Assembly (NCBI RefSeq): GCF_009914755.1
Contig: NC_060928.1
Reading direction: 5' to 3' (one strand)
Length of the DNA stretch: 64,000 bases
Origin: the human T2T-CHM13v2.0 reference genome, Homo sapiens
Of the stretch, positions 23,731 to 25,018 are shown piece by piece (position 1 is the stretch's first letter; every line of letters starts with the position of its first letter). Under the pieces are notes generated by a model. It had not been told where the DNA came from. It was given only the letters and a program-made list of their open reading frames with translations, and searched no databases. The translations under genes and the position numbers were made by a program.

Positions 23731-24854
23731 AATTCTGAAGACAATTAGGGAGAGATATTGGCAAAGTCAAGGAAAATGTTTAACAAGAATAACTTGTAAC
23801 TTCTAGGTGTTTATTACTTGTAGAGGCAAAACTGAATGAACTGGTTAAAGATAACTGATCCAGAAACTTGACTGGCTTCTAAAGAGCCAATAGATCGATT
23901 ATATAAATCTCTGTTCTGTTCTGAACAGTTTAAATCTTTCATGTTTTTATATTTTTAAGGAAAAGAAAGAAGAATGTGGCTGGTTGTGTTCATGTGAGGC
24001 AAACACCTTTACATCTTGTGATGTAAAATACTGGAAATTTTAATCTATTCCTTTTCACTTGACTACATGCAAAGGACTTGGAGTAGTTAACCAGTGACTA
24101 TTTCTGCTTGGTTCTCCAATTTAAATCCACTTGGGTTTTAGCGTCTTAACGCCTATGTTTCCAGCATTGTATTAACATTGTTTAAGAGCAAAAACAGCAC
24201 ATACAGACTGGCTACATATGAAAAAAAAAAATCAATGGATGGAACAACTCCGAAATCCCCTAAGTACCTTCAGTTCCAAGAATGTCTGGATTTCCTTCCC
24301 ACCAGCAGCATTATTTACTGGATTTATGTTCTTCCTCACCTACCCATGCCAAGCTGATATGAAAGGGCTTGTATGAGTCAGGAAAGAAAAAAAACTGGCT
24401 TGTCTCCATGTCAACAATGACAACAAAAAATATTAATTTGAGAAAATATCCACTTTGCTCCCAGGAAAACATAGCAGAAAATAAAATACGCTGTTATGAA
24501 GTGCTTCATTAACAGGGTGGGAAGGGTGGTCACTTTGATGTAACTACTCTGCCAAAAGATGTCTTCATTTTTTTCTATTCTTGGCCAAGGAGTTCGAATT
24601 TAAGAAAGAGTGAAGGAGCATTTAATAGGTGCAGCAATATCACAGAATATCCCATATCTGCACCCAATTTCCCCTATGCAAACATGCAACAAACTTCCAA
24701 TGGTTTAAGGGTTTTGGTTCAGCAAACTCTTGTTATATGTGAAACAATCAAACATAAGACACTGTACACTGCAGGCTGACAGCACACATTAAGTGCTAAT
24801 TATTGCTATTATTCTTCTAGCTGTACACACATTAATAACACTTCCTTAACTTAT

Positions 24855-25018
24855 CTTCTAGCAAAGGAGGCTCTTCATCAAAACTGTCAATGTAAGGAGA
24901 TTGTGAATAATAATCTGAGTTGGATGCTGGCTGAAAAAATTGTCCTGCGTAACCCGATGACATGAGCATCTCTGATGGAACAAAGGAGGCAGGCTGAGGC
25001 TGCTCACCAGCTTGTTGT
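24855..25018 (-). CDS. YIPF7: YIPF7 coding exon 3 ([12 protein letters not shown]...[12 protein letters not shown])
   Basis: Acceptor ttttctag|A; 164 nt; frame matches exons 2 and 4 if the exon ends at 24855, where the donor is non-canonical (G|ataagt). Confidence 0.93.

What the first reader, a model, noticed from the sequence alone, without database searches (positions are those of the whole stretch)
24832..24860. YIPF7 intron 3 has a broken 5' splice site (G|ATAAGT), giving an AT-AG intron
Seen: exon 3 ends CTA GAA G and exon 4 starts AA CTT GGA. Joining them rebuilds the Yip1 motif EPPLLEELGI, so the donor must be at 24854. There the minus strand reads ATAAGT, a perfect U2 consensus except +1 G>A. 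The other four introns are GT-AG. It is not U12-type (no ATATCCTT; acceptor is CAG). Established: +1 G>A usually abolishes splicing. Skipping exon 3 (164 nt), or using the GTs that add 4 or 13 nt, shifts the frame. Inference: this allele is a hypomorph or an incipient lineage-specific loss with all exons still intact, or a rare working AT-AG intron.
Basis: partly seen in the sequence, partly recalled or inferred. Interest (0 to 1): 0.85.

Follow-up and report, generated by a model that had tools for sequence, protein, structure and literature searches.

The report
Known working AT-AG intron in YIPF7
Intron 3 of the human muscle gene YIPF7 really does begin with AT instead of GT, but this is a rare working intron that is already annotated and catalogued, not a broken gene.

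Summary
On the minus strand, exon 3 ends ...GCTAGAAG at 24855. Intron 3 (18482-24854, 6373 nt) starts ATAAGT and ends TTACAG. The other four introns are GT-AG, and the 256-codon frame is intact.

It is not an assembly error or an unknown defect. Parada et al. 2014 (PMC4176328, supplementary spreadsheet) list the same 6373-nt AT-AG junction in hg19. They class it as U2-like, with 15 + 90 RNA-seq reads (heart, skeletal muscle), 1 cDNA and 2 ESTs. It survived their dbSNP135 filter.

The chr5 paralog has GAAG|GTAAGA at the same codon and phase, so A at +1 is derived. Nothing points to U12 signals or to an RNA-editing duplex. A reporter study showed that CAG|ATAAGTAT is spliced through U1 when enhancers flank it (PMC6280755).

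Best reading: a U2-type AT-AG intron rescued by a 5' splice site that is otherwise near consensus. Its efficiency is unmeasured. An annotated read-through exon ending at an intronic AATAAA is what a weak donor would produce. Already known; modest interest.

The parts
24847..24857 (-). 5' splice site of intron 3, positions -3 to +8: AAG|ATAAGTTA. A at +1 is 24854.
   Evidence: It matches the recalled U1-complementary consensus CAG|GTAAGTAT at 7 of 11 positions (-2, -1, +2 to +6). It matches the U12 consensus ATATCCTT at only 4 of 8.
24855..25018 (-). YIPF7 exon 3 (164 nt). It encodes the end of the cytosolic N-terminal part, up to ...EEPPLLE plus the first base of the next codon.
   Evidence: and the hub annotation given with the finding.
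18482..24854 (-). Intron 3, 6373 nt, AT-AG.
   Evidence: Same length and dinucleotides as hg19 chr4:44631565-44637938 in the PMC4176328 supplement.
18482..18521 (-). 3' splice site region: pyrimidine tract (84% C/T in the 25 nt before the AG) and CAG acceptor. There is no U12 branch-site motif at a usable distance.
18336..18481 (-). YIPF7 exon 4 (146 nt). It starts AA, completing the GAA codon, then LGIHFDH...
   Evidence: It is 79% identical over 48 aa to the chr5 paralog exon.
21368..25018 (-). Annotated alternative terminal exon: exon 3 read through into intron 3. It would encode 93 normal residues plus DKLRKCY and a stop (100 aa, no membrane part).
   Evidence: Hub annotation (exons of other transcripts).
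21392..21397 (-). AATAAA poly(A) signal. Its last base lies 24 nt upstream of the annotated transcript end at 21368, and a T/GT-rich stretch follows.
24871..24879 (-). Purine-rich stretch GATGAAGAG, 16 nt upstream of the donor. Candidate exonic enhancer (inferred only).
   Evidence: The sequence is. The enhancer role is inferred from the enhancer dependence of AT sites reported in PMC6280755. It was not tested.

Best explanation
Intron 3 of human YIPF7 is a genuine U2-type (major spliceosome) intron whose first base changed from G to A, giving AT-AG ends. It is still removed at the exact annotated junction in heart and skeletal muscle. This most likely works for three reasons. The rest of the 5' splice site (AG|xTAAGT) is complementary to U1 snRNA at -2, -1 and +2 to +6. 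The acceptor has a strong pyrimidine tract and a CAG. Flanking enhancers probably help. The A at +1 is expected to slow or weaken splicing, chiefly at the second step, where the first and last intron bases interact (recalled knowledge). Some transcripts therefore probably end at a poly(A) site inside the intron, or use the frame-shifting GT at +5. Shown here or in print: the sequence, the use of the junction, the ancestral GT in the paralog, and the absence of U12 or editing signals. Inferred: U2 dependence, enhancer help and reduced efficiency.
For: Sequence: AAG|ATAAGT ... TTACAG|AA, with four GT-AG neighbour introns and an intact 256-codon frame.

Junction use: the PMC4176328 supplementary spreadsheet, sheets 1 and 2, lists YIPF7 chr4:44631565-44637938 (hg19, minus strand) as 6373 nt, ATAG, class U2_GTAG, score 87.8. 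It records 15 reads in the 16-tissue mix, 0 in GM12878, 1 cDNA, 2 ESTs and 90 reads in single tissues (heart, skeletal muscle), under ENST00000332990.5 and ENST00000415895.3. That study dropped junctions whose splice sites carried dbSNP135 variants, and kept only junctions at 1:20 or better against the main variant.

Two assemblies (hg19 and this T2T window) carry the A.

Ancestry: the chr5 paralog exon ends ...TTATTAGAAG|GTAAGA in the same codon and phase.

Mechanism precedent: in a U1-dependent reporter, CAG|ATAAGTAT was spliced at +1 when an upstream SRSF7 enhancer was present. It beat weak GT sites, ranked GC > TT > AT > GA > GG > CT, and showed some use of +5 when both enhancers were present (PMC6280755, sections 4 and 5).

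Weak-donor by-product: an annotated read-through exon 21368-25018 ends 24 nt after an AATAAA.
Against: No quantitative comparison with the neighbouring junctions was available, so efficiency is unknown. The catalogue filter would still pass a junction 20 times rarer than a competing variant.

Junction reads do not cover the intronic base. The genotype of the RNA donors is therefore not shown directly, only made likely by the dbSNP135 filter.

YIPF7 was not named in the main text of PMC4176328 (0 occurrences), so it may not be among the 10 junctions they tested by RT-PCR. The PDF supplement that lists them could not be read.

U2 dependence rests on motif matching, not on an experiment.

No orthologue DNA could be examined, so the date and spread of the G>A change are unknown.

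Classical work (recalled, not looked up) shows that +1 G>A usually stalls splicing after the first step.
Confidence: 0.82

Rival explanations
1. Natural hypomorph or gene on the way to loss. The A at +1 cripples splicing so far that most human YIPF7 transcripts are read through and polyadenylated in intron 3, mis-spliced at +5, or skip exon 3. Little full-length protein is then made, and the catalogued junction reads are a small residue.
For: +1 G>A is normally severe (recalled knowledge; also stated in PMC6280755). An annotated transcript runs from exon 3 into the intron and ends at an AATAAA-directed site. AT sites in reporters were strictly enhancer-dependent and could also splice at +5; here that adds 4 nt and shifts the frame. 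The Parada filter only requires a ratio of 1:20 or better.
Against: There are 105 RNA-seq reads in total (15 + 90), plus 1 cDNA and 2 ESTs, for the exact junction in the two tissues where the gene is expressed. RefSeq's selected transcript and two Ensembl transcripts use it. All exons and the frame are intact. The hub's exon list shows no annotated +4 or exon-skipping isoform.
Confidence: 0.1
2. A-to-I editing turns the AT into IT, which is read as GT, before splicing. This has been reported for a few AT-AG and GT-AA introns.
For: Parada et al. list three AT-AG junctions with A>G mismatches (Table 2). YIPF7 could not have been tested in their ENCODE cell lines if it is not expressed there (0 GM12878 reads).
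Against: None of the 25 longest of 41 inverted-repeat pairs in 22800-26900 covers the donor. Across the whole 40.1-kb pre-mRNA span, the best antisense match to the 101 nt around the donor is 10 nt, and the best one covering 24854 is 9 nt (E = 11, chance level). The local fold is no more stable than shuffles (z = +1.44). A 5' G neighbour is the least favoured context for ADAR (recalled).
Confidence: 0.03
3. The intron is removed by the minor (U12-dependent) spliceosome, like most AT-AG introns in catalogues.
For: 20 of the 26 ATAG rows in sheet 2 of the Parada supplement are classed U12-like. Sheth et al. 2006 list 11 human U12-type AT-AG introns.
Against: Donor positions +1 to +8, ATAAGTTA, match ATATCCTT at 4 of 8. 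The only branch-site-like word in the last 60 nt (TCCTTTTT, 2 mismatches) would put the branch A 6 nt from the acceptor, which is too close. The long pyrimidine tract is typical of U2 introns. Parada's class is U2_GTAG with score 87.8.
Confidence: 0.03
4. Sequencing or assembly error, or a private allele of the CHM13 genome.
For: None found.
Against: hg19, built from other donors, has the same ATAG ends and the same 6373-nt intron. The site passed a dbSNP135 filter. YIPF7 is absent from the one supplementary file of a 2010 survey of SNPs at splice dinucleotides (0 hits in 81,308 characters).
Confidence: 0.01

Closest known systems
U2-like non-canonical AT-AG junctions catalogued by Parada et al. 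2014 (NAR 42:10564, PMC4176328)
   Same: This very junction is a row in their high-confidence sheet. It has the same ends, the same length and the same class (U2_GTAG).
   Different: Nothing differs: it is the same object. Sheet 2 holds six U2-like ATAG rows: AC022596.1.1, C1orf63, RP11-321N4.3.1, RP11-349A22.5.1, SPATA7 and YIPF7. Of these, YIPF7 has the top score (87.81). It is also the only one annotated in transcripts of a named protein-coding gene.
Reporter AT 5' splice site CAG|ATAAGTAT of Erkelenz et al. 2018 (PMC6280755)
   Same: +1 A in an otherwise U1-complementary site, joined to an AG acceptor, and spliced at +1.
   Different: The YIPF7 site has A at -3 and TA rather than AT at +7/+8, so it has 7 rather than 10 of 11 complementary positions. 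Its enhancers are only guessed, and it is a natural intron of 6.4 kb.
U2-type AT-AC introns ('AT-AC II', Wu and Krainer 1997; cited in PMC6280755, otherwise recalled)
   Same: ATAAGT-type donor handled by the major spliceosome.
   Different: Those end in AC, which restores the first-last base interaction. This one ends in AG.
U12-type AT-AG introns such as ACTR10, XPO4 and NUP210 (Sheth 2006, PMC1557818; Parada 2014)
   Same: AT-AG ends. At least some are derived recently from GT-AG (ACTR10 in primates).
   Different: Those carry the ATATCC donor and the U12 branch site. YIPF7 does not.
Homologous intron of the chr5 paralog (YIPF5/Yip1A by name from PMC6682643; identified here by 79% identity)
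   Same: Same codon, same phase 1, same exon flank GAAG.
   Different: Canonical GTAAGA donor, TTTAG acceptor, 1175 nt long.

Membership tests
U2-type (major spliceosome) intron with non-canonical AT-AG ends | Terminal dinucleotides AT and AG at the boundaries required by the mRNA | tested here: met
   The four possible boundary placements are AG-AC, GA-CA, AT-AG and TA-GA; none is canonical.
U2-type (major spliceosome) intron with non-canonical AT-AG ends | 5' splice site fits the U1/U2-type consensus apart from +1 | tested here: met
   AAG|ATAAGT matches at -2, -1 and +2 to +6. A crude PWM with recalled frequencies scores it 10.5 bits without +1, above the four GT donors of the gene at 3.2-7.4 bits. 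Parada score is 87.8, class U2_GTAG.
U2-type (major spliceosome) intron with non-canonical AT-AG ends | Pyrimidine tract and YAG acceptor | tested here: met
   84% pyrimidine in the 25 nt before the AG, and a CAG acceptor.
U2-type (major spliceosome) intron with non-canonical AT-AG ends | The exact junction is present in RNA | tested here: met
   By look-up, not from my own reads: 15 + 90 RNA-seq reads, 1 cDNA and 2 ESTs.
U2-type (major spliceosome) intron with non-canonical AT-AG ends | Dependence on U1/U2/U4/U6 snRNPs | not testable with these tools
   Needs snRNA knock-down or suppressor U1 experiments.
U12-type intron | Donor ATATCCTT or GTATCCTT | tested here: not met
   4 of 8 matches.
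U12-type intron | Branch site TCCTTRAY about 10-15 nt from the acceptor | tested here: not met
   Only TCCTTTTT (2 mismatches), with the branch A 6 nt from the acceptor, in the last 60 nt.
U2-type AT-AC intron | AC at the 3' end | tested here: not met
   The intron ends CAG.
Editing-dependent AT(IT)-AG intron | Double-stranded RNA that includes the donor adenosine | tested here: not met
Yip1 domain family (Pfam PF04893) | Match to the Yip1 domain profile above the curated cut-off | tested here: inconclusive
   Only single-exon translations could be scanned. Exon 5 gave E = 0.014 at 15.7 bits against a cut-off of 28.6; the exon 3, 4 and 6 pieces gave nothing (1 of 4). The gene name comes from the hub annotation. 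Exon 4 is 79% identical to the chr5 paralog.

The most novel reading that the evidence does not exclude
The G>A at +1 is a recent, lineage-restricted change (primate or hominid) that turned YIPF7 into a naturally leaky gene. A large share of muscle transcripts would then end at the intronic poly(A) site and encode a 100-residue soluble N-terminal fragment. Over-expression of the corresponding N-terminal part of the paralog YIPF5 disrupts the Golgi and binds COPII components (review PMC9437294). The AT donor would then act as a built-in switch between a membrane protein and a soluble modulator of ER exit.
Probability: 0.12. Interest if true: 0.55.

Novelty: already known. Interest (0 to 1): 0.3.

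Why it matters
Major-spliceosome introns that start with A and still end in G are very rare. In the 2014 catalogue only six U2-like AT-AG junctions passed all filters, and YIPF7 is the only one that sits in the main coding transcript of a named gene. It is therefore a convenient natural case for asking how the major spliceosome tolerates an A/G first-last base pair. It also matters for variant interpretation: tools that treat any non-GT donor as loss of function, or aligners that refuse AT-AG, will mis-handle this gene. The fact itself is not new, however. It is in RefSeq, in GENCODE and in a published table. No paper in the searched library discusses it in its main text. The searches were 'YIPF7' with 'splice', with 'intron' and with 'loss-of-function' (15, 19 and 9 papers), judged from titles and abstracts, plus passages of four of those papers.

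Tried and rejected
- Orthologue DNA (other primates, mouse) is in none of the collections offered, so the age of the G>A change could not be dated. Only the human paralog could be used.
- A search of the whole human assembly with the exon 3 and exon 4 peptides found only YIPF7 itself and, for exon 4, the chr5 paralog. No processed copy exists that could have recorded the junction.
- Pfam on single-exon pieces was nearly uninformative. The spliced protein was not sent to other tools because joined sequence may not be typed.
- The editing idea was tested and rejected.
- The U12 idea was tested and rejected.
- The supplement of the 2010 splice-SNP survey (PMC2882926) does not mention YIPF7. Its main text has no YIPF7 either.
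- The PDF legends and primer table of PMC4176328 could not be read. I therefore cannot say whether YIPF7 was among the 10 junctions checked by RT-PCR.
- C14orf37, named in that paper's Table 2 as an edited U2-like AT-AG case, does not occur in the spreadsheet under that name.
- My 5' splice-site PWM used frequencies recalled from memory. It serves only to rank sites.

Full report
**What is there.** Read on the minus strand, YIPF7 exon 3 (24855-25018) ends ...CCTTTGCTAGAAG. The next bases are ATAAGTTAAGG, with the A at 24854. Exon 4 (18336-18481) starts AACTTGGAATC and is preceded by ...TTTTTCCTTTTTACAG.

A script over all six annotated exons gave three results:
- Introns 1, 2, 4 and 5 are GT-AG.
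- Intron 3 (18482-24854, 6373 nt) is AT-AG.
- The five coding parts add up to 771 nt, 256 codons and a stop, with the intron falling after the first base of a GAA codon.

Three bases are shared between the exon and intron ends, so the same mRNA could be drawn with AG-AC, GA-CA, AT-AG or TA-GA borders. None of these is canonical, so the non-canonical intron cannot be argued away. GTs 4 and 13 nt downstream would shift the frame. A GT at offset 24 keeps the frame, but the added stretch contains a TAA. Skipping the 164-nt exon also shifts the frame.

**It is not an error and not new.** The supplementary spreadsheet of Parada et al. 2014 (PMC4176328) lists this junction twice: in the sheet of all non-canonical junctions, and in the sheet of 'U2/U12-like' high-confidence junctions. 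The entry reads as follows:

| Field | Value |
|---|---|
| Location | YIPF7, chr4:44631565-44637938 (hg19), minus strand |
| Intron length | 6373 nt |
| Dinucleotides | ATAG |
| Class and score | U2_GTAG, 87.8 |
| Reads, 16-tissue mixture | 15 |
| Reads, GM12878 | 0 |
| cDNAs / ESTs | 1 / 2 |
| Reads, single-tissue libraries | 90 |
| Tissues | heart, skeletal muscle |
| GENCODE v17 transcripts | ENST00000332990.5, ENST00000415895.3 |

The intron length is identical to the one in this T2T window. Two assemblies from different donors therefore carry the A.

From the passages I read, the authors discarded non-canonical junctions with SNPs or indels in dbSNP135. They also kept only junctions at a ratio of at least 1:20 to the most abundant competing variant. 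YIPF7 is not named in their main text. The PDF that lists their RT-PCR targets could not be read. A 2010 survey of SNPs at splice dinucleotides does not list YIPF7 in its main text or in its one supplementary file.

**How rare it is.** I read the whole of sheet 2. It holds 26 ATAG rows. Twenty are classed U12-like and six U2-like: AC022596.1.1, C1orf63, RP11-321N4.3.1, RP11-349A22.5.1, SPATA7 and YIPF7. YIPF7 has the highest score of the six. It is also the only one annotated in transcripts of a named protein-coding gene; RP11-321N4.3.1 carries one transcript id, and the other four are 'Unannotated'.

**Where it came from.** A search of the whole human assembly with the exon 4 peptide found one paralog exon on contig 5, 79% identical over 48 residues. 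The exon 3 peptide found only YIPF7. In the paralog, the upstream exon ends ...CCACCTTTATTAGAAG followed by GTAAGATTTG. Its intron is 1175 nt and ends TTTAG before AGTTAGGT.

The intron position and phase are therefore shared, and the paralog's donor is a normal GT. The simplest reading is that YIPF7 also had GAAG|GTAAGT and that G>A at +1 is derived. Reviews name the pair YIPF5/Yip1A and YIPF7/Yip1B. They say the duplication is shared by mammals and teleosts, and that Yip1B is the muscle form (PMC6682643 passages). When the G>A change happened cannot be said here, because no orthologue DNA is available in these tools.

**Which machinery.**
- The donor matches the U12 consensus ATATCCTT at 4 of 8 positions.
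- The last 60 nt of the intron hold no usable U12 branch site. The only near-match has two mismatches and lies 6 nt from the acceptor.
- The 25 nt before the AG are 84% pyrimidine.
- Apart from +1, the donor pairs with U1 at -2, -1 and +2 to +6.
- A rough matrix with recalled frequencies scores it above all four GT donors of the gene once +1 is left out: 10.5 bits against 3.2-7.4 bits.

This agrees with Parada's U2_GTAG class.

**Editing.** Editing of the A to inosine is a known route for a few AT-AG introns. It needs a duplex, and none was found:
- None of the 25 longest of 41 inverted-repeat pairs in 22800-26900 touches the donor.
- The best antisense match to the 101 nt around the donor, anywhere in the 40.1-kb transcribed span, is 10 nt. 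The best one over the A itself is 9 nt, at chance level.
- The local fold is slightly less stable than shuffled controls (z = +1.44).

**Why it can work.** Erkelenz et al. 2018 (PMC6280755, sections 4, 5 and 6 read) placed CAG|NNAAGTAT sites in U1-dependent reporters with an AG acceptor. Their results bearing on this intron:
- The AT version was spliced at +1.
- It out-competed weak GT sites.
- It ranked third among non-canonical dinucleotides (GC > TT > AT > GA > GG > CT).
- It was strictly dependent on an upstream SRSF7 enhancer.
- It showed extra use of the GT at +5 when a downstream TIA1 enhancer was added.

The YIPF7 donor is the same kind of site with somewhat less complementarity. A purine-rich GATGAAGAG lies 16 nt upstream of it, and a U/GU-rich stretch follows it. 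That these act as enhancers is my inference.

Classical genetics (recalled, not looked up here) says that A at +1 mainly hinders the second catalytic step, because the first and last intron bases interact. AT-AC restores that interaction and AT-AG does not. Reduced efficiency is therefore expected.

**Signs of leakiness.** The hub annotation lists another transcript whose last exon runs from the exon 3 acceptor (25018) straight through the donor to 21368. An AATAAA sits at 21397-21392, ending 24 nt before that end, with a T/GT-rich stretch after it. That transcript would encode the first 93 residues plus DKLRKCY, 100 residues in all, with none of the membrane part. Intronic polyadenylation is what one would expect downstream of a weakened donor, but I have no counts. 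The hypomorph reading therefore stays open at low probability, and the working-intron reading is favoured.

**Verdict.** This is a real, rare, derived U2-type AT-AG intron that is spliced in the tissues where the gene is expressed. It is annotated in RefSeq and GENCODE and listed in a 2014 catalogue, so it is already known.

What remains unknown:
- its efficiency;
- its age;
- whether the read-through product matters.

No main-text discussion of it turned up in the searched library. I judged this from titles and abstracts, and read passages of PMC6682643, PMC9437294 and PMC12755273. Supplements of other papers are not searchable and may hold more.

Noticed in passing
window 21368-25018 (minus), AATAAA at 21392-21397: The annotated alternative terminal exon is simply exon 3 read through into intron 3, ending at a canonical poly(A) signal. 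It would give a 100-residue protein holding only the cytosolic N-terminal part.
   Followed up: partly
window 24849-24850 (GT at intron +5/+6): In reporters, AT sites with a second GT at +5/+6 can also be cut at +5 (PMC6280755). Here that would add ATAA and shift the frame. No such isoform is in the hub's exon list, and I could not count reads.
   Followed up: no
L005 (G000:C5:144696200-144706199), donor near genome 144697620: The homologous intron of the chr5 paralog is 1175 nt with a GTAAGA donor, against 6373 nt in YIPF7. The YIPF7 intron is more than five times longer as well as non-canonical.
   Followed up: partly
window 11027-11352 (YIPF7 3' UTR): A 2025 medRxiv GWAS of Pick's disease (PMC12755273, passages read) reports that SuSiE nominated rs990356, a YIPF7 3' UTR variant, as the likely causal SNP at its chr4 locus. 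The two fine-mapping methods reached no consensus. Colocalisation with a brain YIPF7 eQTL was 0.74, below the paper's threshold. I did not locate the SNP in the window.
   Followed up: no
PMC4176328, Table 2 versus the supplementary spreadsheet: C14orf37 is named in the paper's Table 2 as an edited U2-like AT-AG junction, but it does not occur under that name in the spreadsheet (0 hits).
   Followed up: no
window 31678-31791 and 49373-51123: The hub lists further alternative exons: one inside intron 2 and one upstream first exon. I did not examine them.
   Followed up: no
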